Source of the DNA: Bryobacter sp.
GTDB lineage: Bacteria; Acidobacteriota; Terriglobia; Bryobacterales; Bryobacteraceae
Reading direction: 5' to 3'
Assembly: GCA_033765085.1 (NCBI GenBank)
Contig: JANRIK010000021.1
Coordinates: 22,435 to 46,434, forward strand
Length of the DNA: 24,000 nucleotides
In this document: one piece after another, positions 15,855 to 23,282 of the stretch
How positions within the stretch are numbered: position 1 is the stretch's first letter
Layout of the letters: every line of letters starts with the position of its first letter
Made by a program: the position numbers and the translations under genes
Notes under the pieces: model-generated
What the model was told of the DNA's origin: nothing
What the model saw: the letters and a program-made list of their open reading frames with translations, nothing else
Database searches by the model: none

Positions 15855-16963
15855 TGAGCTTTAGCGTAACGGCGATGGCCACTTTGGCCACCTACATTGC
15901 CCGCAACAAGATGAGTCCGAAGCCAGAATGGCAGAGAACGGTGAAGGGCGAGGACGACGCGGCGAATCCGTTTCGGATTATTCACACTCGTTTCGGTCCT
16001 TCGGATAAAAAGCCGCATCCGCTCATCAACAAGCGCTTCCCGCTGGTGCTGCAACTCGAGCCTTTGCACGCCTGCAACCTGACGTGCACGGGTTGTGGCC
16101 GGATTCGCGAGTACGAATCGACGATTACCCAGCAATTGAGCCTGGAAGAATGTTTGCGGGCGAGCGATGAGTGTGGCGCGCCGGTGGTGGCTATTTGCGG
16201 GGGCGAGCCGATGTTGTACGGTCCGCTGCCGCAGATGGTGGAAGGATTGCTCGAGCGCGGGCGGATTGTGATTTTGTGCACGAACGGGATGTTCATGGCC
16301 AAGAAGCTGGGCCAATACAAGCCGCACGAGAATTTCTTTTTTAACGTTCACTTGGACGGCATGGAAAAGACCCACGATATTTGCGTAGAGCGCGAGGGCG
16401 TGTTCAAGCTGGCCGTGGAAGGCATTCAAGCGGCGAAGGCGGCGGGCTTCAAGGTCTGCACGAACACGACCGTGTACCAGGAAACGTCGATGGACGAGCT
16501 GGATGAGATGTTCACGTTCCTGAGCAAGTTTAAGCTCGACGGGCACATGATCTCGCCGGCCTACGGCTATTCGGCGGTGAATGACCGGGAAATCTTCATG
16601 ACGCGCGAAGACATTGTGGAGAAGTTCAAAGGTTTCCGCAAACGCTTTGAAAAGGTGAAGTTCAACCAGAGCCCGGTGTACCTAGAGTTTTTGGAAGGCG
16701 AGCGCGACCTGCCCTGCACGGCCTGGGGCAACCCGACCTACAACGTGAAGGGATGGAAGGGCCCCTGCTATCTGATTACCGACGCCCACTATCCCACCTT
16801 TGAAGAGCTGATGACCAAGACGCAATGGGAGAACTACGGCCACGGGGCAGACCCGCGCTGCGACCATTGCATGGTGCACTGCGGCTATGAGCCTTCAGCG
16901 GCAATGGGCATCAATGCGAAGTGGCAGGATGCCTTTACCTACATGAGCTGGATGATCAAGTAA
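15854..16963 (+). CDS. hpnH: Adenosylhopane synthase (radical SAM, hopanoid side-chain extension)
   Basis: The in-frame ATG at 15854 overlaps the shc TAA by 1 nt (TAATG). The protein starts MSFSVTAMATLATYIARNK and has the radical-SAM CxxxCxxC motif LEPLHACNLTCTGCGRIREY. The C-terminal Cys-rich tail is PCTAWGNPTYNVKGWKGPCYL...CDHCMVHCGYE. The track extension 15629-15853 lies inside shc. Confidence 0.93.
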   Translation: MSFSVTAMATLATYIARNKMSPKPEWQRTVKGEDDAANPFRIIHTRFGPSDKKPHPLINKRFPLVLQLEPLHACNLTCTGCGRIREYESTITQQLSLEECLRASDECGAPVVAICGGEPMLYGPLPQMVEGLLERGRIVILCTNGMFMAKKLGQYKPHENFFFNVHLDGMEKTHDICVEREGVFKLAVEGIQAAKAAGFKVCTNTTVYQETSMDELDEMFTFLSKFKLDGHMISPAYGYSAVNDREIFMTREDIVEKFKGFRKRFEKVKFNQSPVYLEFLEGERDLPCTAWGNPTYNVKGWKGPCYLITDAHYPTFEELMTKTQWENYGHGADPRCDHCMVHCGYEPSAAMGINAKWQDAFTYMSWMIK

Positions 16964-16981: not shown

Positions 16982-17944
16982 GTGCCGCGGGCATTGGTGA
17001 CGGGCGCGACGGGCTTCGTCGGCTGGCATGTGGCCCGGCAGTTGTTGGAGCGCGGCTGGGAAGTGAGAGCCTTGGCAAGACGGGGTAAAGTGCCGGAACT
17101 GGAAATAGAAACCATCCATGGCGACCTGCGGGACCGTTCGAGTGTAGAACGGGCTGCCGAGGGTTGCGATGCGTTGTTTCACGTGGCGGCGGATTACCGC
17201 CTGTGGACGGCGAAGCCGGAGGAGATGTATGCCTCGAACGTGGAGGGCACGCGCAACGTCCTGCGCGCTTGCCGGAAGATGCGAGCGGTGTATTGTTCCA
17301 CAGTGGGAGCCATTGGGATGCGGCCCGGCCTGCTGGCCGATGAAGATTCCCCGGTAAGCCTCGCGGATATGAAAGGCCACTACAAGCGCTCGAAGTTCCA
17401 GGCCGAAGCCGTAGCGCGGGAAGCGGCGGCGGAAGGTATGGACGTGGTGATCGTGAATCCGACCACGCCGCTGGGCGAAGCAGACCGCAAGCCAACGCCG
17501 ACGGGAAAAGTGGTGGTGGACTTTTTGGCGGGCAAGATCCCGGCCTATATCGATACGGGCCTGAACTATGTGGATGTTCGCGATGTGGCCGACGGGCACT
17601 GGCTGGCTTATGAGCGCGGCAAGCGGGGCGAGCGGTATATTTTGGGGTCAGAAAATCTGACCTTGATCGGCATGCTCCAACGGTTGGCTAAAGTCTCCGG
17701 CAAGGCGGCGCCGACGGTGGAATTGCCGTATTTTGTGGCCTACACGGCCGCGGCGGTATCAACGGCGTGGGCGGGGTTGACGGGTAAGGCGCCAGGGATT
17801 CCGCTGGATGGCGTGCGTTATGCACATACCAAGATGTGGGTGAATTGCGAAAAAGCGAAGCGGGATTTGGGCTATGCGCCGCAAACCGTGGACGGAGCTC
17901 TTGGCCGCGCTGTTGCTTGGTTTCGGGAGCATGGCTATGTCTGA
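16982..17944 (+). CDS. hpnA: Hopanoid-associated NAD(P)-dependent sugar epimerase/dehydratase-family protein
   Basis: 320 aa with a GTG start. It has the Rossmann motif LVTGATGFVGWHV, the HpnA-typical FHVAADYRLW, and YKRSKFQAE (YxxxK). It sits between hpnH and hpnG. Confidence 0.85.
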   Translation: MPRALVTGATGFVGWHVARQLLERGWEVRALARRGKVPELEIETIHGDLRDRSSVERAAEGCDALFHVAADYRLWTAKPEEMYASNVEGTRNVLRACRKMRAVYCSTVGAIGMRPGLLADEDSPVSLADMKGHYKRSKFQAEAVAREAAAEGMDVVIVNPTTPLGEADRKPTPTGKVVVDFLAGKIPAYIDTGLNYVDVRDVADGHWLAYERGKRGERYILGSENLTLIGMLQRLAKVSGKAAPTVELPYFVAYTAAAVSTAWAGLTGKAPGIPLDGVRYAHTKMWVNCEKAKRDLGYAPQTVDGALGRAVAWFREHGYV

Positions 17945-17963
17945 GCTGGCTATGTCTGAATTG
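17934..17963. repeat. 15-bp tandem duplication (GCTATGTCTGAGCTG / GCTATGTCTGAATTG) at the hpnA-hpnG junction
   Basis: The two adjacent copies differ at 2 positions. They are followed by a degenerate third start (GCCATGCTG). The first copy contains the hpnA stop codon (17942-17944). In the hpnG frame they encode AMSEL-AMSEL-AM. Confidence 0.9.
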
Positions 17964-18539
17964 GCCATGCTGTGCGCAATGGAAGTGGAGCGTGCGGCGG
18001 CGCCGACAGGAGTGCCGCTGGTGGTGAGCGGGCCAGGCTTCGGGCGGGCCCGGCGGGCAGCGGAAGACTTGGCGGCGCAATCGCCGGGCATGATCTTGAA
18101 CTTTGGCACCTGCGGGGCGCTGCGACCGGAGTACGCCTTGGGCCAAGTGTTCAGCGCGCAATTGGCCAGCTTGCCTTGCCTGGCTTGGCCGGGTTTGCCG
18201 CAGGCTCGATTGATCAGCCAGGACCGCGTAGCGGTGACGAAGGAAGAAAAGGCCGCACTGGCGCGGGCAGGTGGCGATCTGGTGGACATGGAAGCGCAAG
18301 CCGTGGCGGAGGTCTGCGCGGCGCGCGGCATTCGCTTTGCGGCCGTGAAGGCTGTGTCGGACTTGGCGGACGAAGACTTGCCGCTGGACTTCAACCGCTT
18401 TCGCCGGGCCGACGGTGGCTTTGAGAATTGGCGCATAGCGTTGGCGGGACTTGGAAGGATGGGAGATTTGTTGCGCTTGAAGCGGCAGACGGAACTGGCC
18501 GTGGCGCGCTTGGGGGAGGTTTTGCGAAATGCCAACTAA
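17937..18539 (+). CDS. hpnG: Hopanoid-associated phosphorylase/nucleosidase (PNP/MTAN family; releases adenine from adenosylhopane)
   Basis: It has the PNP_UDP-type C-terminal motif DMEAQAVAEVCAARGIRFAAVKAVSDLADED and an N-terminal LAMLCAMEVE...GPG segment. Five in-frame ATGs lie between 17931 and 17979. I chose 17937 because GGGAG sits 7 nt upstream. The track start 17874 lies deep inside hpnA. The start is uncertain. Confidence 0.82.
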   Translation: MSELAMSELAMLCAMEVERAAAPTGVPLVVSGPGFGRARRAAEDLAAQSPGMILNFGTCGALRPEYALGQVFSAQLASLPCLAWPGLPQARLISQDRVAVTKEEKAALARAGGDLVDMEAQAVAEVCAARGIRFAAVKAVSDLADEDLPLDFNRFRRADGGFENWRIALAGLGRMGDLLRLKRQTELAVARLGEVLRNAN

Positions 18540-19605
18540 GGGCTTGATGCGAGCCGCGGTTTACCGGGGAAAGAACGATGTCCGGATTGAACGGGTGCCG
18601 GTGCCGGAAATTGGTCCCGGAGAACTTTTGGTGCGGGTGGCGGCCTGTGGGGTTTGCCATACAGACCTCAAAAAGATTGAGTACGGGCTGCTCGAGCCGC
18701 CGCGGATTTTTGGGCACGAAACTGCCGGGACGGTGGCCGTGGTGGGCGAAGGAGTGGCGAAATTTGGCGTGGGCGACCGCGTGGTGGCGTTTCACCACAT
18801 TCCCTGCGGCAATTGTTTTTACTGCGAACGTAAGCTTTATGCCCAGTGCCCCGTGTACAAGAAGGTGGGAATTACGGCGGGTTTTGAGGCAGCGGGCGGC
18901 GGCTATGCGGAATTTATCCGCGTGATGCCGTGGATTGTGGAACGCGGGGTGGAACGGATCCCCGAGGGGGTGAGCTTTGAGGCCGCCAGCTTTGTGGAGC
19001 CCGTGAATACTTGTCTGAAGGCCGTGGCGCAAAGCGGAGCCCGGGCGGGGGATGTGGCGCTGGTCTTGGGCCAAGGGCCCATCGGGCTGCTATTCACAAT
19101 GATTTTGCGGGAGCGCGGCGTGACGACGCTGGTGACCGATTTGAGCGAGGCGCGGCGGGCGCGGGGGCGGCGCTACGGCGCGGCGGAGGCCTTGGACCCG
19201 CGGACGGAAGACCTGGCCGCGGCGACCCGGAATTACACGGAAGGCCGTGGCGCGGACTTGGCCTTTGTGGCCGTTTCGGCGCCAGGGGTGGTGGAGCAGG
19301 CGGTTTCGGCGACACGGCCGGGAGCCCGAATTACGCTCTTTGCGCAGACCAGCGATAAGGAACGCATCGAACTATCGGGGGCGAGCATCTGCAAGGATGA
19401 GAGAGTATTGGCCGGTGCGTATTCGGCAGACGTGGACCTACAGGCCGAGAGCGCGCGAATGGTTTTTGACGGGACGCTGCCGGTGGGAGAATTGGTAACG
19501 AACGTGTATCCGCTTGAAGAGATTGAAGAAGGCATAAAATTGGCCACCCATCCGACCGCAGAATCATTGAAAATAGTAATTCGGCCACAAGCGGTAGAAG
19601 GCTAA
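18529..19605 (+). CDS. Zn-dependent alcohol/polyol dehydrogenase, MDR superfamily (NAD-type cofactor site)
   Basis: 358 aa. Catalytic Zn ligand contexts are CGVCHTD, GHETAG and EPVNTC, and the structural Zn site is CGNCFYCERKLYAQC. The Rossmann motif GQGPIG is followed 18 residues later by Asp (LVTDLS). An alternative start at ATG 18547 (MRAAVYRGK) aligns with the paralog's N-terminus. Confidence 0.9.
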   Translation: MPTKGLMRAAVYRGKNDVRIERVPVPEIGPGELLVRVAACGVCHTDLKKIEYGLLEPPRIFGHETAGTVAVVGEGVAKFGVGDRVVAFHHIPCGNCFYCERKLYAQCPVYKKVGITAGFEAAGGGYAEFIRVMPWIVERGVERIPEGVSFEAASFVEPVNTCLKAVAQSGARAGDVALVLGQGPIGLLFTMILRERGVTTLVTDLSEARRARGRRYGAAEALDPRTEDLAAATRNYTEGRGADLAFVAVSAPGVVEQAVSATRPGARITLFAQTSDKERIELSGASICKDERVLAGAYSADVDLQAESARMVFDGTLPVGELVTNVYPLEEIEEGIKLATHPTAESLKIVIRPQAVEG

Positions 19606-19632
19606 AGGCGAAAGAAGCGCTTGAAACACGAA

Positions 19633-20661
19633 ATGCTGGCCGCCGTTCTGTACGGCAAAGAGCAAATAGAAATCAAACGGGTTCCTGTTCCGGAACTTGA
19701 CGCGGGTGATTTGTTGGTGCGGGTGCGCGCGGCGCTTACCTGTGGCACTGACGTTAAGGTATTTCGCCGGGGCTATCACGCGCGGATGATTGTGCCGCCA
19801 GCTCTGTTTGGGCATGAACTGGCCGGAGACGTGGTGGCAGTGGGCGCGGGCGTAAAGGATTTTCATTTGGGCCAGCGGGTGGTGGCGGCCAACAGCGCGC
19901 CGTGTGGCGAGTGTTTTTATTGCCGCAAGGATAATGAGAACCTTTGCGAGAACCTGCTGTTCAACAACGGCGCCTACGCGGAGTTCATTCGCATTCCTTC
20001 GCGCATCGTCGAGAAGAATACCTACGAGATCCCAGACCACGTGGACTATCAGGATGCCGCGCTGGTGGAGCCGCTGGCTTGTGTGATTCGCGGTATCGAT
20101 GAGAGCCGCGTCAAGAGCGGTGACACGGTGGCGGTGATTGGCGTAGGGCCCATCGGCCTGATGTTTGTCCGCCTGCTGAGCCTGCGTGGTTGCCGGGTGA
20201 TCGCCATTGGGCGGCGGCGGCCGCAGTTGGAGCGGGCGCGGGCGCTGGGCGCGGCCGAGACGCTTTCGATTCAAGAAGAGAAGAGTATATTGGGCGCAGT
20301 TCGGCACCACACGCAGGGCTATGGCGCGGACGTAGTGATTGAAGCGGTGGGCAGCCCGGAGACCTGGCATCAAGCTGTGGAACTGGTGCGCCGCGGGGGC
20401 ACGGTGAATTTCTTTGGCGGATGCCCGGCGGACACCAAGGTGACTCTGGACACGCAATTGATGCACTATTCCGAAATCACCTGCACGGCGAGTTTCCACC
20501 ATTCGCCGGGGCATGTCCGCAAAGCGCTGGAAGCCGTTGTTGCTGGTTACATTACGGCGCACGACTTTGTGACCGGCAGCCAGCCGCTGTCGAATTTGAA
20601 CGAAGTGCTGCGGCACCAGTTGCGCAAGAATGGCGCCATCAAGACAGCTATTATCCCCTAA
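19633..20661 (+). CDS. Zn-dependent alcohol/polyol dehydrogenase, MDR superfamily (NADP-type cofactor site), paralog of the preceding gene
   Basis: Catalytic Zn ligand contexts are TCGTD, GHELAG and EPLACV, and the structural Zn site is CGECFYCRKDNENLC. The Rossmann motif GVGPIG is followed by IAIGRRRP, with Gly at the position of the NAD-type Asp and then an Arg cluster. The start is set at ATG 19633 (MLAAVLYGKEQIEIKRVPVPE), which aligns with MRAAVYRGKNDVRIERVPVPE. The track start is TTG 19621. Confidence 0.9.
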   Translation: MLAAVLYGKEQIEIKRVPVPELDAGDLLVRVRAALTCGTDVKVFRRGYHARMIVPPALFGHELAGDVVAVGAGVKDFHLGQRVVAANSAPCGECFYCRKDNENLCENLLFNNGAYAEFIRIPSRIVEKNTYEIPDHVDYQDAALVEPLACVIRGIDESRVKSGDTVAVIGVGPIGLMFVRLLSLRGCRVIAIGRRRPQLERARALGAAETLSIQEEKSILGAVRHHTQGYGADVVIEAVGSPETWHQAVELVRRGGTVNFFGGCPADTKVTLDTQLMHYSEITCTASFHHSPGHVRKALEAVVAGYITAHDFVTGSQPLSNLNEVLRHQLRKNGAIKTAIIP

Positions 20662-20686
20662 GGATTTTGTCCGCGACGCGGAAGCC

Positions 20687-21595
20687 ATGGGCCGGGCGTG
20701 GAGCCTGGACGAGAGCCTCGCTTACACGAAATGGATTGCTACCGGGCACTACGAGAACTTCCACGTAGTGAGCTTCTTGCTGCCCAAAGAACTGCACCAG
20801 GATTTTTACAACGTGTATGCATATTGCCGCTGGGCCGATGACCTAGGCGACGAAATTGGGGATACGGCGGAATCGTTACGTTTGTTGGGTTGGTGGCGGG
20901 AGCAATTGTGGGATGAGGGACAAGCGCGGCATCCAGTCTTCGTTGCGTTGCGGCCAACGATGGAACGGCGGGGATTGTCGCGCATCCATTTTGAGAACTT
21001 AATTCGCGCCTTTGAGCAAGACCAAACGAAGACGCGTTACCGGGATTGGGCAGAACTCGAGGATTATTGTGTGTACTCGGCCAACCCGGTGGGGCGTTTG
21101 GTGCTAGAGCTTTGCGGGTACCGGGATGAGGCGCGGGCGAAGTTGAGCGACGCGACTTGCACGGGGCTGCAGTTGGCCAATTTCTGGCAGGACGTTAGCG
21201 TGGACCTGGAAAAAGGGCGCATCTACTTGCCGCTGGAGGTTTTGGCGCGACACGGCGTGAGCGAGGCGGAAGTTCAGGGCCGGCGTCACAGCGATCGCTT
21301 CGCGGCGGCTATGCGGGAGGCGGTGGAGAAGGCGCGGGAGTATTTCCGCGTGGGGAAACGCTTGGTGCCGACCTTGGATCCGCAACTGGCTTTGGACATT
21401 GCGCTGTTTAACGCCGGGGGCGAGAAGATTCTCGATAAGGTGGAGCAGCAGGGCTATGCGGTGTTGGACAAGCGGCCCAAGATTGGCAAGGGAGAAAGAG
21501 TGAGTTTGCTTTTGGGAGTCCTGGCCGGGTGGGCCAAGAAACGGATAGCGGGGGGCTTCCGGCAGCCGCTACCCTCAGAGCATGAAAGAGCGTGA
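20687..21595 (+). CDS. hpnC: Hydroxysqualene synthase (squalene/phytoene synthase family, HpnC type)
   Basis: It has GHYENFHVVSFLLPKELHQDFYNVYAYCRWADDLGDE (HpnC-like YENFxVxS plus the first Asp-rich motif) and QLANFWQDVSVDLEKGRIYLP (second motif). The start is set at ATG 20687. The track start 20630 overlaps adh2 by 32 nt. Confidence 0.82.
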   Translation: MGRAWSLDESLAYTKWIATGHYENFHVVSFLLPKELHQDFYNVYAYCRWADDLGDEIGDTAESLRLLGWWREQLWDEGQARHPVFVALRPTMERRGLSRIHFENLIRAFEQDQTKTRYRDWAELEDYCVYSANPVGRLVLELCGYRDEARAKLSDATCTGLQLANFWQDVSVDLEKGRIYLPLEVLARHGVSEAEVQGRRHSDRFAAAMREAVEKAREYFRVGKRLVPTLDPQLALDIALFNAGGEKILDKVEQQGYAVLDKRPKIGKGERVSLLLGVLAGWAKKRIAGGFRQPLPSEHERA

Positions 21596-22424
21596 TGTTG
21601 TAAAGGAACTGGCCGAATACCTACGGGGTCGTGCGGCGGAGGCGGTGACGCTGGAGGAAATGAGCCGGCGGACTGGCTATAGCGCGTTCTACTTGCAGAA
21701 GCGCTTCAAGGCAGAGATGGGTGTGACGCCGAAGCAGTTCCACGCGCAATGCCGAAGGGAGGTTTTGAAGCGGGAATTGCGCGAGGGGAGTAGTGTGACC
21801 GGTGCGCTTTTTGAGGCGGGCTACGGGAGCACGAGCCGCGTGTATGAGAACGCGCGCGAGGCGCTGGGGATGACTCCGGGCGAATATGGCAAAGCGGGGG
21901 CGGGGGTGGAAATTAGCTTTGTGGTGCGGCCGACGCGTTTGGGGCAACTGCTGCTGGCGGCGACCGAGCGCGGGCTATGTGCCGTAAGGCTGGGAGAGCA
22001 GGCAAGGGCATTGTGCCGAGAATTGCAGGAAGAGTTTCCAGGCGCGAAACTGACAGAGGCGGGCCCGCCGTACAGTGCGGCGCTGGAGCAGTGGTGGGCG
22101 GCCATTGAGGAATACTTGGCGGGAAAGAAGATGCCGCGCGATTTGCCCTTGGATGTGCAAGCGACCGCCTTCCAAGCCAGCGTCTGGCAGTTTCTGCAGA
22201 GCATCCCCGCGGGCGAAACGCGGACCTATGCGGAGGTGGCGGAGGGCATTGGCCGGCCTAGCGCGATTCGTGCGGTGGCGCGGGCCTGCGCGGCAAACCC
22301 CTTGGCGCTGGTGGTGCCGTGCCACCGTGTAATCCGTGCGGATGGCAAACTAGGGGGCTACCGTTGGGGCATGGGGCGGAAGCGGCAGCTTCTGGAGGCC
22401 GAGCGCGAAGCTGCGGGATACTAG
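21582..22424 (+). CDS. AraC-type HTH domain fused to O6-methylguanine-DNA methyltransferase (Ada-like, lacking the N-terminal Zn/Cys4 methylphosphotriester domain)
   Basis: 280 aa. The N-terminal half is an AraC-type double HTH (LEEMSRRTGYSAFYLQKRFKAEMGVTPKQF...ALFEAGYGSTSRVYENAREALGMTPGEY). The C-terminal half is MGMT with TAFQASVWQFLQSIPAGETRTYAEVA and the active site VVPCHRVIRADGKLGGYRWG. Its start overlaps the hpnC end by 14 nt. Confidence 0.9.
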   Translation: MKERDVVKELAEYLRGRAAEAVTLEEMSRRTGYSAFYLQKRFKAEMGVTPKQFHAQCRREVLKRELREGSSVTGALFEAGYGSTSRVYENAREALGMTPGEYGKAGAGVEISFVVRPTRLGQLLLAATERGLCAVRLGEQARALCRELQEEFPGAKLTEAGPPYSAALEQWWAAIEEYLAGKKMPRDLPLDVQATAFQASVWQFLQSIPAGETRTYAEVAEGIGRPSAIRAVARACAANPLALVVPCHRVIRADGKLGGYRWGMGRKRQLLEAEREAAGY

Positions 22425-22430
22425 ATAGGA

Positions 22431-23282
22431 TTGGCCTTAAGCATCGAGCAATCTTACGAATACTGCGAGCGCGTGGCACGGGAGAAGGCGAAGAATTTCT
22501 ATTATTCCTTTCTGGTGCTGCCGAAGGCGAAGCGGCGGGCGATGTGCGCCGTGTATGCGTTCTACCGCGAGTGCGACGACTTAAGCGACGAGGGGGGAGC
22601 GCAAGCCGCGGCGCTGGACCATTGGGCGCGGCAATTGCACGGGGCTTTGGAGGGCGAAACAAGTGGGCATGCGGTTTGGCCGGCCTTTGCTGATACCGTG
22701 CACCGCTTCCACATTCCACCGCTTTATTTTCAAGAAATGATCGAAGGCGTTAAGGGCGATCTGCGCTTTGTGGAGCCGGAAGACTTTGCCGCGCTTTACC
22801 AATACTGCTATCGCGTGGCGAGCGTGGTGGGTTTAACGATTGTGCACATCTTCGGGTTTCGCGATGCAAGCGCGCTGGCGCTGGCCGAGAAGTGCGGCGT
22901 AGCGTTTCAATTGACGAACATCCTGAGGGATGTGGCCGAGGATGCGTCGAATGGGCGGGTTTACTTGCCGCGGGATTTGCGCGAACGGCACGGAGTGATG
23001 CCGGAGGATTTAGCTGCGGATTTGGCGGCGGGCAAGACGGGGGAAAAGCTGCGGGAGGTTTTGCGGTGCCTCGGCCGGCAGGCGCGGGAATACTACGAAG
23101 TATCGCGGCCCTTGATTGAGATGGTGGAGCGGGATGCGCAAGGGAGTATGTGGGCGCTGGTGGAAATTTACGACCGGCTGCTACGGCGCATCGAGAAGGC
23201 AGATTTCGCTGTTATGGAGAAGCGCCATCGCTTGCCTACCGCGGAAAAATTGGCGATTCTCGGGCAGGCTTTCTTGCGTTAA
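22431..23282 (+). CDS. hpnD: Presqualene diphosphate synthase (squalene/phytoene synthase family, HpnD type)
   Basis: 283 aa. It has KNFYYSFLVLPKAKRRAMCAVYAFYRECDDLSDE and AFQLTNILRDVAEDASNGRVYLPRD, the two Asp-rich motifs. It has a TTG start 6 nt after the previous stop, and no ATG alternative lies nearby. Confidence 0.85.
   Translation: MALSIEQSYEYCERVAREKAKNFYYSFLVLPKAKRRAMCAVYAFYRECDDLSDEGGAQAAALDHWARQLHGALEGETSGHAVWPAFADTVHRFHIPPLYFQEMIEGVKGDLRFVEPEDFAALYQYCYRVASVVGLTIVHIFGFRDASALALAEKCGVAFQLTNILRDVAEDASNGRVYLPRDLRERHGVMPEDLAADLAAGKTGEKLREVLRCLGRQAREYYEVSRPLIEMVERDAQGSMWALVEIYDRLLRRIEKADFAVMEKRHRLPTAEKLAILGQAFLR

What the first reader, a model, noticed from the sequence alone, without database searches (positions are those of the whole stretch)
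18529..20661. Tandem Zn-dehydrogenase paralogs coupled to hpnG: candidate for the unassigned ribosylhopane to bacteriohopanetetrol step
Seen in sequence: two MDR Zn-dehydrogenase paralogs, roughly one third identical by eye, lie between hpnG and hpnC. The first one's ATG overlaps the hpnG stop by 11 nt. Both keep catalytic-Zn contexts (CGVCHTD/GHETAG/EPVNTC and TCGTD/GHELAG/EPLACV) and the structural Cx2Cx2Cx7C site, so both look active. Their cofactor pockets differ. In adh1, GQGPIG is followed 18 residues later by Asp (LVTDLS), the NAD-type pattern. In adh2, the same position is Gly followed by RRR (IAIGRRRP), the NADP-type pattern. Established knowledge: HpnH makes adenosylhopane and HpnG removes adenine to give ribosylhopane. 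Conversion of ribosylhopane, via its open-chain aldehyde, to bacteriohopanetetrol needs a reduction. That reduction has been reported as an NADPH-dependent activity in cell-free extracts, and to my knowledge no gene has been assigned to it. Sugar/polyol MDR dehydrogenases perform exactly this carbonyl-to-polyol chemistry. Inference: one or both genes, with the NADP-type adh2 the best guess, encode the missing reductase. Alternatively, the NAD/NADP pair acts as an oxidise-then-reduce epimerisation module producing a side-chain stereoisomer or a keto intermediate.
Basis: partly seen in the sequence, partly recalled or inferred. Interest (0 to 1): 0.8.

Follow-up and report, generated by a model that had tools for sequence, protein, structure and literature searches.

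The report
Paired zinc dehydrogenases inside hopanoid operon
Two intact, anciently duplicated zinc-dependent dehydrogenase genes are fixed inside the hopanoid-lipid operon of Bryobacter-type soil bacteria, which makes them testable candidates for finishing the hopanoid side chain; the same gene pair also occurs in bacteria that make no hopanoids, so it is not the universal missing enzyme.

Summary
adh1 (18529-19605) and adh2 (19621-20661) are intact MDR zinc dehydrogenases, 35% identical. They lie between an HpnG-like nucleosidase gene and hpnC in a Bryobacter sp. (Acidobacteriota) hopanoid operon. Zinc sites are intact, with an NAD-type Asp in adh1 and an NADP-type Gly-Arg-Arg in adh2.

The arrangement is not chance. 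In 80 of 80 related Bryobacterales/Terriglobia genomes the order hpnA-hpnG-adh1-adh2-hpnC-hpnD is kept, with gaps of about 10-20 nt. Both genes are better conserved than hpnG, hpnC or hpnD.

The association is already published. Sinninghe Damsté et al. 2017 list these genes as ug1 and ug2, function "not established".

New here: the two genes form an ancient, co-inherited A-B module. Orthologous pairs (43-54% identity) occur in Vicinamibacteria, a hopanoid-free acidobacterial class, and in other lineages without nearby hopanoid genes. In one Armatimonadota genome the pair sits directly before hpnC-hpnD-hpnE.

Both proteins belong to the polyol/threonine-dehydrogenase branch, whose members act on secondary alcohols and ketoses.

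Verdict: they are plausible lineage-specific redox enzymes of the ribose-derived hopanoid side chain, and adh2 could be the NADPH-dependent ribosylhopane reductase. They are not the general missing enzyme, and a hopanoid-unrelated sugar function remains a serious rival.

The parts
18529..19605 (+). adh1 (= 'ug1'): 358-aa MDR Zn-dehydrogenase, the 'A' member of the pair. NAD-type (Asp204). Catalytic Cys43/His63/Glu64/Glu157 contexts and a structural Zn site at C93/96/99/107.
   Evidence: (model pLDDT 90.6)
19621..20661 (+). adh2 (= 'ug2'): 346-aa MDR Zn-dehydrogenase, the 'B' member of the pair. NADP-type (Gly197-Arg198-Arg199). Catalytic Cys41/His65/Glu66/Glu150 contexts and a structural Zn site at C95/98/101/109. 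The conserved Met is at 19633.
   Evidence: (model pLDDT 75)
17874..18539 (+). HpnG-like nucleosidase/phosphorylase (PNP_UDP_1). Its stop overlaps the adh1 ATG.
   Evidence: (TIGR03468 93 bits, below cut-off 187)
16982..17944 (+). hpnA, hopanoid-associated SDR 'sugar epimerase'. It is a third NAD(P) oxidoreductase in the same operon.
   Evidence: (TIGR03466 433 bits, above cut-off 368)
15854..16963 (+). hpnH, radical-SAM adenosylhopane synthase. The start is approximate; the listed ORF starts at 15629.
   Evidence: TIGR03470 407 bits
13902..15854 (+). shc, squalene-hopene cyclase
   Evidence: TIGR01507 628 bits
12895..13905 (+). ispH (LytB), first gene of the conserved block
20630..21595 (+). 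hpnC, squalene synthase HpnC. The ORF start overlaps the end of adh2.
   Evidence: (TIGR03464 321 bits)
21582..22424 (+). Ada/Ogt-type regulator-methyltransferase inserted between hpnC and hpnD. Found only in the closest relatives.
22431..23282 (+). hpnD-like presqualene diphosphate synthase
   Evidence: (TIGR03465 244 bits, just below cut-off 279)

Best explanation
adh1 and adh2 are the two members of an ancient, co-inherited 'A-B' pair of zinc-dependent medium-chain dehydrogenases of the polyol/threonine-dehydrogenase branch. A is NAD-type and B is NADP-type.

In Bryobacterales and related Terriglobia the pair has been fixed inside the hopanoid operon, directly after hpnA-hpnG and directly before hpnC-hpnD.

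Shown: gene integrity, catalytic and cofactor motifs, operon fixation, and co-evolution of the two genes.

Inferred: the pair is a two-step redox module working on the ribose-derived, polyhydroxylated end of the C35 hopanoid side chain that HpnG exposes. B would use NADPH to reduce a carbonyl. The simplest candidate is the open-chain aldehyde of ribosylhopane, giving bacteriohopanetetrol. A would use NAD+ to oxidise a secondary hydroxyl, most likely C-34, next to the chain end. The result would be a keto (ketose-type) or, after re-reduction, an epimeric side chain. This has the logic of the aldose-to-polyol-to-ketose 'polyol pathway', applied to a lipid-linked sugar.

It would be a lineage-specific solution, not the universal ribosylhopane reductase.
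For: - Fixed position in 80/80 loci spanning 60-75% (adh1) and mostly 56-88% (adh2) identity. Median gaps: 19 nt (hpnG stop to adh1), 11 nt (adh1 to adh2), -6 nt (adh2 to hpnC).
- Conservation: adh1/adh2 median identity is 64/66%. This compares with hpnG 37%, hpnD 52%, hpnC 61%, hpnA 60% and shc 63%.
- The pair is never missing. hpnH is absent from the cluster in 30 loci.
- A second phylum (Armatimonadota) has the pair immediately upstream of hpnC-hpnD-hpnE.
- Catalytic and structural Zn ligands are invariant. Asp204 (A) and Gly-Arg-Arg (B) are conserved. B aligns with Ala199-Arg200 of the NADP(H) ketose reductase 1e3j.
- The A and B trees are congruent and the A-then-B order is kept in every tandem pair found.
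- The nearest characterised relatives are sorbitol/xylitol/arabinitol/butanediol/threonine dehydrogenases and ketose reductase.
- The enzyme for ribosylhopane to BHT is unassigned.
- Intact BHP structures of subdivision 1/3 Acidobacteria are unknown, because they are poorly extractable and were typed only by Rohmer degradation.
- In Vicinamibacteria the pair lies 3-7 kb from a purine-nucleoside-phosphorylase operon, of the same superfamily as HpnG. This is a weak hint of a ribose-type ancestral substrate.
Against: - Orthologous pairs (A 43-48%, B 37-54% identical) occur with no hopanoid genes within the sequence available. This includes the sister clade in Vicinamibacteria, a class reported to lack shc and hopanoids.
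- C. thermophilum makes BHT derivatives without ug2.
- No published hpn cluster of model BHT producers is reported to contain such genes (my knowledge; not tested here).
- One reduction needs one enzyme, not two.
- The family resemblance is to secondary-alcohol/ketose enzymes, not aldehyde reductases.
- Nothing in the sequences marks a lipid-binding or membrane-associated surface.
- No biochemical or genetic data exist.
Confidence: 0.38

Rival explanations
1. The pair is a general soluble sugar/polyol (or amino-alcohol) redox module with no hopanoid substrate. It would be a pentose/pentitol or other polyol interconversion, and it is merely carried along in the acidobacterial operon.
For: - The same A-B pair occurs in Vicinamibacteria, next to QueF, a WYL regulator and nucleoside-catabolism genes.
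- It also occurs in a marine lineage and two other soil lineages without hopanoid genes.
- Single relatives occur in cyanobacteria and archaea.
- The best family resemblances are threonine, sorbitol, inosose and butanediol dehydrogenases.
- Substrate-region motifs (YSA.V.LQ in A, FHHTP in B) are kept between hopanoid-linked and unlinked clades.
Against: - 80/80 fixation with overlapping or near-overlapping reading frames inside a dedicated lipid operon, over deep divergence.
- The pair is more stable in the operon than hpnH.
- There is an independent adjacency to hpnC-hpnD-hpnE in Armatimonadota.
- In the 10-kb flanks checked by similarity to the window's own operon proteins, no second strong copy of either gene turned up. 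Only two weak adh2-like hits (28% and 31%) did.
Confidence: 0.3
2. One reading: adh2 (and/or adh1) is THE missing ribosylhopane-to-BHT reductase used by hopanoid producers in general.
For: The step is unassigned. The genes lie next to hpnG. adh2 has an NADP-type pocket. The reported cell-free activity is NADPH-dependent (Bodlenner et al. 2015, cited; I could not read the paper itself).
Against: - The best 80 loci are all Terriglobia/Bryobacterales.
- ug2 is absent from the BHT-producing C. thermophilum.
- Orthologues occur in hopanoid-free lineages.
- Mutant screens of hpn clusters in Rhodopseudomonas and Burkholderia found no such gene. Some schemes even treat the step as non-enzymatic.
Confidence: 0.07
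3. The pair serves the squalene/isoprenoid end of the pathway and is coupled to hpnC/hpnD/hpnE. Examples would be redox of an isoprenoid alcohol or aldehyde such as hydroxysqualene or farnesol.
For: adh2 overlaps or abuts hpnC in 71 of 74 loci. In Armatimonadota the pair precedes hpnC-hpnD-hpnE with no shc/hpnH/hpnG within 10 kb. Sinninghe Damsté et al. grouped ug2 with hpnCDE. AibC, an isoprenoid-related MDR, is among the structural neighbours.
Against: - The HpnD/HpnC/HpnE route needs no NAD(P) dehydrogenase (Pan et al. 2015, as summarised).
- ug2 is absent from C. thermophilum, which has hpnCDE.
- The closest relatives act on polar polyols and amino alcohols, not isoprenoids.
- No hpnE lies in the Bryobacterales clusters.
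Confidence: 0.1
4. A and B form one heteromeric enzyme in which only one subunit turns over substrate. The other is structural or regulatory.
For: Strict A-then-B adjacency, frequent 4-nt overlaps and congruent trees.
Against: Both keep every catalytic and cofactor residue under strong conservation. This reading is not exclusive of the others.
Confidence: 0.1

Closest known systems
ug1 and ug2 of acidobacterial hopanoid gene clusters (Sinninghe Damsté et al. 2017, Front Microbiol 8:968, PMC5462960)
   Same: These are the same genes. ug1 is a 'Zn-dependent alcohol dehydrogenase (ca. 370 AA)' after hpnA-hpnG. ug2 is a 'Zn-binding alcohol dehydrogenase (ca. 350 AA)' before hpnC. ug2 is reported present in all subdivision 1 and 3 Acidobacteria, and cluster C (hpnA-hpnG-ug1) is recognised in subdivisions 1 and 3. 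Function is 'not established'.
   Different: That paper treated them as two separate cluster-associated unknowns and proposed hpnA for the ribosylhopane step. It did not note that they are paralogues forming one conserved A-B module. It did not note the NAD/NADP contrast, or their presence outside hopanoid producers.
Polyol-dehydrogenase/threonine-dehydrogenase branch of the MDR superfamily (sorbitol DH 1pl6, NADP(H) ketose reductase 1e3j, L-threonine 3-DH 2dfv/2dq4, (R,R)-butanediol DH 6ie0, L-arabinitol 4-DH 3m6i, xylitol DH 7y9p)
   Same: Same fold (Foldseek TM 0.8-0.86), both Zn sites, a Cys/His/Glu catalytic set and a Rossmann GxGxxG. adh2 shares the Ala/Gly-Arg NADP determinant of 1e3j.
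   Different: Only 22-32% identical. No NCBIfam equivalog cut-off is reached (tdh 145-170 bits against 458; IolM 144-166 against 450). The substrate is unknown.
Two-dehydrogenase sugar conversions with opposite cofactor preference (polyol pathway aldose reductase + sorbitol DH; fungal xylose/arabinose oxidoreductive pathway; B. subtilis IolG/IolW inositol epimerisation; E. coli YcjQ/YcjS). From my knowledge.
   Same: An NADPH-type reductase is combined with an NAD-type dehydrogenase, giving net isomerisation or epimerisation of a sugar or polyol. MDR members such as xylitol and arabinitol DH take part.
   Different: In those systems the partners are usually from different families and are not an obligate tandem paralogue pair. 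None acts on a lipid-linked sugar. The analogy is inference only.
E. coli YdjJ/YdjL (two MDR dehydrogenases in the ydj sugar operon; YdjJ structure 5vm2)
   Same: Two MDR Zn-dehydrogenases are encoded in one carbohydrate-type operon. 5vm2 is among the best structural matches (TM 0.84-0.89).
   Different: 24-27% identity. The genes are not adjacent paralogues in A-B order, and there is no lipid context.
HpnA (hopanoid-associated SDR 'sugar epimerase')
   Same: An NAD(P) oxidoreductase in the same operon. It was previously suggested for the ribosylhopane-to-BHT step.
   Different: It belongs to a different superfamily (SDR). It is reported non-essential for BHT in Burkholderia and absent from Rhodopseudomonas.

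Membership tests
Medium-chain dehydrogenase/reductase (Zn-ADH) superfamily | ADH_N (GroES-like) plus ADH_zinc_N (Rossmann) domains above the Pfam gathering score | tested here: met
   adh1 87/60.9 bits and adh2 87.7/84.4 bits, against cut-offs 23.5/31.8
Medium-chain dehydrogenase/reductase (Zn-ADH) superfamily | Catalytic Zn ligands (Cys, His-Glu, Glu) and a structural Zn Cx2Cx2Cx7C lobe | tested here: met
   Invariant C43/H63/E64/E157 and C93/96/99/107 in adh1. Invariant C41/H65/E66/E150 and C95/98/101/109 in adh2. Metal binding itself is not testable here.
Medium-chain dehydrogenase/reductase (Zn-ADH) superfamily | MDR fold | tested here: met
   AlphaFold models have pLDDT 90.6 (adh1) and 75.4 (adh2). 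Foldseek TM is 0.80-0.86 to many solved MDRs.
L-threonine 3-dehydrogenase (TIGR00692 / NF003808) | Score above the NCBIfam equivalog cut-off | tested here: not met
   144.5 and 169.8 bits against 458; 142 and 162 against 380
scyllo-inosose 3-dehydrogenase IolM (NF041097) | Score above the NCBIfam equivalog cut-off | tested here: not met
   144 and 165.5 bits against 450
ug1/ug2 of acidobacterial hopanoid clusters (Sinninghe Damsté 2017) | A Zn-ADH of about 370 aa directly after hpnA-hpnG, and a Zn-ADH of about 350 aa directly before hpnC, in subdivision 1/3 Acidobacteria | tested here: met
   Gene order in the window and in 80 loci. Definitions. The organism is Bryobacter sp., subdivision 3.
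Ribosylhopane reductase (activity defined biochemically; no sequence family exists) | NADPH dependence | tested here: inconclusive
   The adh2 Gly197-Arg198-Arg199 pattern is conserved and aligns with the NADP determinant of 1e3j. This is a sequence pattern only.
Ribosylhopane reductase (activity defined biochemically; no sequence family exists) | Co-occurrence with hpnH/hpnG across BHT producers and absence from non-producers | tested here: not met
   Met within Bryobacterales (80/80). Fails outside: pairs occur in Vicinamibacteria and other lineages without hpn genes nearby, and ug2 is absent from C. thermophilum. Whole-genome profiling was not possible.
Ribosylhopane reductase (activity defined biochemically; no sequence family exists) | Conversion of ribosylhopane to BHT by the purified protein, or loss of BHT in a knock-out | not testable with these tools
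   Requires biochemistry or genetics
NAD-type versus NADP-type MDR cofactor pockets | An acidic residue at the end of Rossmann beta-2 (NAD) versus a small residue followed by Arg/Lys (NADP) | tested here: met
   adh1 has Asp in all 80 loci and Asp/Glu in all distant A members. adh2 has [GA]RR in nearly all Bryobacterales, also in Vicinamibacteria and Armatimonadota, but variable in more distant B members.

The most novel reading that the evidence does not exclude
The pair runs a 'polyol pathway' on a membrane lipid. adh2 is the long-sought NADPH-dependent ribosylhopane reductase of Terriglobia. adh1 then oxidises BHT at C-34 with NAD+ to a keto (ribulose-type) or epimerised side chain. This would create so far undescribed bacteriohopanepolyols, which could underlie the poorly extractable hopanoids of subdivision 1/3 Acidobacteria. 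The module would have been recruited from an older ribose/pentitol-handling pair that works downstream of PNP-family nucleoside cleavage.
Probability: 0.18. Interest if true: 0.75.

Novelty: new member of a known kind. Interest (0 to 1): 0.5.

Why it matters
Bacteriohopanepolyols are major bacterial membrane lipids and the source of geohopanes, among the most abundant molecular fossils. The enzyme that turns ribosylhopane into bacteriohopanetetrol has been missing for more than a decade. Acidobacteria are among the most abundant soil bacteria, and their intact hopanoid structures are still unknown.

Two strongly conserved, operon-fixed dehydrogenases give a concrete gene pair that can be deleted or expressed to test this step. 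They also allow a test of whether Acidobacteria make keto or epimeric side chains that would change biomarker interpretation.

The finding that the pair is an older, more widespread module sets a limit. At best it is one lineage's solution. It also points to an uncharacterised two-enzyme sugar/polyol pathway present in many soil and marine bacteria.

Tried and rejected
1. Assigning the proteins to a characterised equivalog (tdh, IolM, AdhP, GatD, idonate DH, Ahr, 'HpnZ_proposed' and others). All scores were far below the cut-offs.

2. A literature search for an assigned ribosylhopane reductase. None was found. A 2025 paper says 'not yet established', and a 2026 review figure calls the step 'nonenzymatic'. 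Liu 2014 and Bodlenner 2015 are not held in the library.

3. Idea: the pair replaces HpnE, since no hpnE lies within 10 kb in the window or in 80 loci. Rejected. hpnE is present elsewhere in these genomes, and the Armatimonadota locus has both the pair and hpnE.

4. A metagenome scan with the Armatimonadota A protein, to find more pair+hpnCDE loci. It returned only generic MDRs at 25-37% identity. No information gained.

6. The promoter/terminator scan of 12-24 kb gave counts at chance level, so there is no evidence for or against internal transcription signals.

7. Relatives of adh1 at 37-44% identity turned out to be heterogeneous (a single cyanobacterial gene, archaeal genes, an NTP-transferase fusion). 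I did not treat them as orthologues.

8. L092, an A-like gene at about 50% identity without a B partner, comes from a frameshift-ridden long-read assembly and was left uninterpreted.


Full report
**1. What is in the window**

The window comes from a Bryobacter sp. metagenome-assembled genome (Acidobacteriota, subdivision 3). Both proteins have 100%-identical database entries named 'MAG... [Bryobacter sp.]' on a 111-kb contig.

From 12.9 to 23.3 kb, all on the + strand, lies one gene block:
- ispH (12895-13905)
- shc (13902-15854)
- hpnH (about 15854-16963)
- hpnA (16982-17944)
- an HpnG-like PNP_UDP_1 protein (17874-18539)
- adh1 (18529-19605)
- adh2 (19621-20661)
- hpnC (20630-21595)
- an Ada/Ogt-type gene (21582-22424)
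- hpnD (22431-23282)

shc, hpnH, hpnA and hpnC pass their NCBIfam equivalog cut-offs. The HpnG-like protein reaches only 93 of 187 bits, and hpnD 244 of 279. Terminator-like and promoter-like sites in the block are at chance level.

**2. Check of the observation**

- adh1 (358 aa) and adh2 (346 aa) both carry ADH_N + ADH_zinc_N. They are 35% identical over 339 residues, E 9e-63.
- The adh1 ATG (18529) overlaps the upstream TAA (18537-18539) by 11 nt and has a GGGGAGG 9 nt upstream.
- One caveat: in homologues the conserved first residue is Met7 (ATG 18547). The true start may therefore lie 7 nt after the stop. Either way the genes are coupled.
- The catalytic contexts (CGVCHTD/GHETAG/EPVNTC; TCGTD/GHELAG/EPLACV) and the Cx2Cx2Cx7C sites are invariant or nearly so in 22-member alignments of each family.
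- In adh1, Asp204 lies 18 residues after GQGPIG and is invariant.
- In adh2 the same position is Gly197, followed by Arg198-Arg199. In a HMMER alignment, Gly197-Arg198 fall on Ala199-Arg200 of the NADP(H)-dependent whitefly ketose reductase 1e3j. From my knowledge of that structure, these are its 2'-phosphate determinants.
- In 80 related loci, adh1 always has Asp and adh2 almost always [GA]RR.

**3. The arrangement is conserved, not chance**

A scan of one genome per GTDB species with the adh1 family alignment found at least 592 encoded relatives. The best 80 are all Bryobacterales/Terriglobia MAGs.

tblastn with the window's own proteins shows the order (ispH-shc-[hpnH])-hpnA-hpnG-adh1-adh2-hpnC-hpnD in essentially every locus that is long enough.

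Median distances:
- hpnG stop to the conserved adh1 Met: 19 nt
- adh1 stop to the adh2 Met: 11 nt
- adh2 stop to the hpnC start: -6 nt

Median identity to the window proteins is 64% (adh1) and 66% (adh2). For comparison: hpnG 37%, hpnD 52%, hpnA 60%, hpnC 61%, shc 63%.

hpnH sits between shc and hpnA in 33 loci, but shc abuts hpnA in 30. The dehydrogenase pair is therefore more firmly fixed in this operon than a proven hopanoid gene.

**4. This association is already in the literature**

Sinninghe Damsté et al. 2017 (PMC5462960) described 'cluster C' (hpnA, hpnG, ug1) and 'cluster A' (ug2, hpnC, hpnD, hpnE).
- Their Table S1 lists ug1 as 'Zn-dependent alcohol dehydrogenase (ca. 370 AA)' and ug2 as 'Zn-binding alcohol dehydrogenase (ca. 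350 AA)'. Both are marked 'Not established'.
- They state that ug2 is in all subdivision 1 and 3 Acidobacteria but not in Chloracidobacterium thermophilum, which nevertheless makes BHT derivatives.
- They suggested hpnA, not ug1/ug2, for the ribosylhopane-to-BHT step.
[quoted passage not shown] A 2026 review figure calls the step 'nonenzymatic'.

So the open question is real. The gene observation is known. Nominating ug1/ug2 for that step appears to be new.

**5. What kind of enzymes they are**

No NCBIfam equivalog cut-off is approached. The best matches are threonine 3-dehydrogenase and scyllo-inosose 3-dehydrogenase, at about one third of the required score.

The nearest solved structures, by sequence and by fold, are threonine DH, sorbitol DH, NADP ketose reductase, butanediol DH, arabinitol and xylitol DH, RspB, YdjJ and AibC. 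Identity is 22-32% and TM 0.8-0.86. The models have pLDDT 90.6 for adh1 and 75.4 for adh2.

This is the polyol/threonine-dehydrogenase branch. Its characterised members oxidise a secondary hydroxyl flanked by polar groups, or reduce the corresponding ketone. That does not exclude aldehyde reduction. It does make 'secondary OH/ketone of a polyol' the default chemistry.

**6. New: the two genes are one ancient module, and it is not confined to hopanoid producers**

A search of 1.84 billion cluster representatives gave full-length relatives of adh1 at 42-49% identity, followed by a continuum down to generic MDRs.

Genomic look-ups of these relatives show an adh1-type gene immediately followed by an adh2-type gene in four lineages:
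- Armatimonadota (L081/L082)
- a marine TARA lineage (L083)
- a soil lineage (L086)
- two further lineages (L088/L089 and L090)

Gaps are small or the genes overlap by 4 nt.

BLASTP confirms the orthology. The first gene is 43-48% identical to adh1 but only 28-33% to adh2. The second is 37-54% identical to adh2 but only 30-32% to adh1.

A neighbour-joining tree gives two congruent subtrees. This indicates an old duplication followed by co-inheritance as a pair.

A further search seeded with L086_A shows a large clade that includes proteins named 'Vicinamibacteria bacterium'. In three longer contigs of that clade (L093-L095) the pair lies next to a genuine QueF-II preQ1 synthase and a WYL regulator. 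In two of them it is 3-7 kb from a purine-nucleoside-phosphorylase / thymidine-phosphorylase / cytidine-deaminase / NupC operon. No shc, hpnH, hpnG, hpnC or hpnD is detectable by tblastn.

Vicinamibacteria are subdivision 6. Sinninghe Damsté et al. report that subdivision 6 has neither hopanoids nor the genes for them. In the tree this clade is sister to the hopanoid-linked Bryobacterales clade.

In contrast, the Armatimonadota pair sits immediately upstream of hpnC-hpnD-hpnE, with no shc/hpnH/hpnG within 10 kb. A frameshifted long-read contig (L091) shows a hopanoid cluster with the pair at 54-60% identity.

Relatives at 37-44% identity include a lone cyanobacterial gene, archaeal genes and an NTP-transferase fusion. 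These are not orthologues.

**7. Interpretation**

Shown:
- Two intact paralogues with complete catalytic equipment and contrasting cofactor signatures.
- Operon fixation in Bryobacterales.
- An ancient, co-evolving A-B module.
- Presence of the module without hopanoid genes in other lineages.

Inferred: the tight and very stable embedding between hpnA-hpnG and hpnC-hpnD, plus a second-phylum adjacency to hpnCDE, argues that in these bacteria the pair works in the hopanoid pathway. Given the enzyme class, the most likely substrate is the ribose-derived C5 polyol/aldose end that HpnG exposes.

The simplest scheme has two steps. B (NADPH) reduces a carbonyl, with ribosylhopane aldehyde to BHT as the obvious candidate. 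A (NAD+) oxidises a secondary hydroxyl, probably C-34. The product would be a keto or, with re-reduction, an epimeric side chain. This follows the aldose-to-polyol-to-ketose logic of the polyol pathway.

This is compatible with what is known chemically. Subdivision 1/3 hopanoids were typed only by periodate/borohydride degradation of whole cells, because they extract poorly, so their intact head groups are unknown.

The proximity of the Vicinamibacteria pair to PNP-family nucleoside-cleaving genes would fit an ancestral ribose-type substrate. That link is loose: the genes are on the opposite strand, several genes away.

I put the hopanoid-side-chain reading at about 0.38. I put a hopanoid-unrelated sugar/polyol function carried in the operon at about 0.30. 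A squalene-end function is about 0.10, and the universal 'missing reductase' reading about 0.07.

**8. Verdict**

- The gene association is already published as ug1/ug2.
- What this analysis adds: the genes form one paired, cofactor-differentiated, ancient module; the strength of its fixation in Bryobacterales has been measured; and it also occurs in hopanoid-free lineages.
- Novelty class: new members of a known enzyme kind with unknown substrate.
- Interest is moderate (0.5). It gives a directly testable handle on a long-standing gap in hopanoid biosynthesis. The comparative evidence is divided, and there are no functional data.

Noticed in passing
window 21582-22424: An Ada/Ogt-type gene (AraC HTH + O6-methylguanine methyltransferase domains) is inserted between hpnC and hpnD. 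It is found there only in the closest relatives (4 of the 80 loci: L001, L004-L006). Other Bryobacterales have hpnC directly followed by hpnD.
   Followed up: partly
L001-L080 (shc to hpnA interval); window 15854-16963: hpnH lies between shc and hpnA in 33 loci. In 30 loci shc abuts hpnA (gap 6-270 nt), so hpnH must be elsewhere. There are two operon variants within Bryobacterales.
   Followed up: partly
window 17874-18539: The HpnG-like ORF scores only 93 bits on TIGR03468 (cut-off 187) and is just 29-56% identical among Bryobacterales. Its listed start overlaps hpnA by 71 nt. Its N-terminus contains a MSELA-MSELA repeat, so the true start may be further downstream.
   Followed up: no
window 1-24000 and L001-L080: No hpnE (hydroxysqualene dehydroxylase) lies within 10 kb of the cluster in the window or in any of the 80 related loci, although hpnC and hpnD are there.
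   Followed up: partly
L086 1130-1504; L093 6203-6571; L094 8451-8828; L095 9372-9767; L088 6015-6650: Distant A-B pairs lie beside queuosine-precursor genes in two separate clades. One clade has a genuine QueF-II preQ1 synthase (Vicinamibacteria clade). The other has a QueE-like radical-SAM gene (L088/L089). This is unexplained and may be coincidence.
   Followed up: partly
L085 841-2649: A 602-aa fusion of an NTP_transferase domain with an MDR domain (about 36-37% identical to adh1) sits next to a CDP-alcohol phosphatidyltransferase. This suggests a polyol-phosphate lipid head-group pathway.
   Followed up: no
L095 11870-12730 (-) and 13243-20821 (-): Directly downstream of the Vicinamibacteria pair lies a short HpnE/phytoene-desaturase-like amine oxidase (286 aa, TIGR03467 66 bits against cut-off 283). 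It is followed by a very large PUFA-synthase-type polyketide synthase.
   Followed up: partly
L081 8946-9977: In Armatimonadota a GntG-family / low-specificity threonine-aldolase-type PLP enzyme (NF041359 394 bits) lies directly upstream of the A-B pair. An FA_hydroxylase-family gene lies about 2 kb upstream.
   Followed up: no
window 1-24000: GC skew is positive in every 1-kb bin of the window (0.06-0.29). The whole hopanoid block is on the + strand.
   Followed up: no
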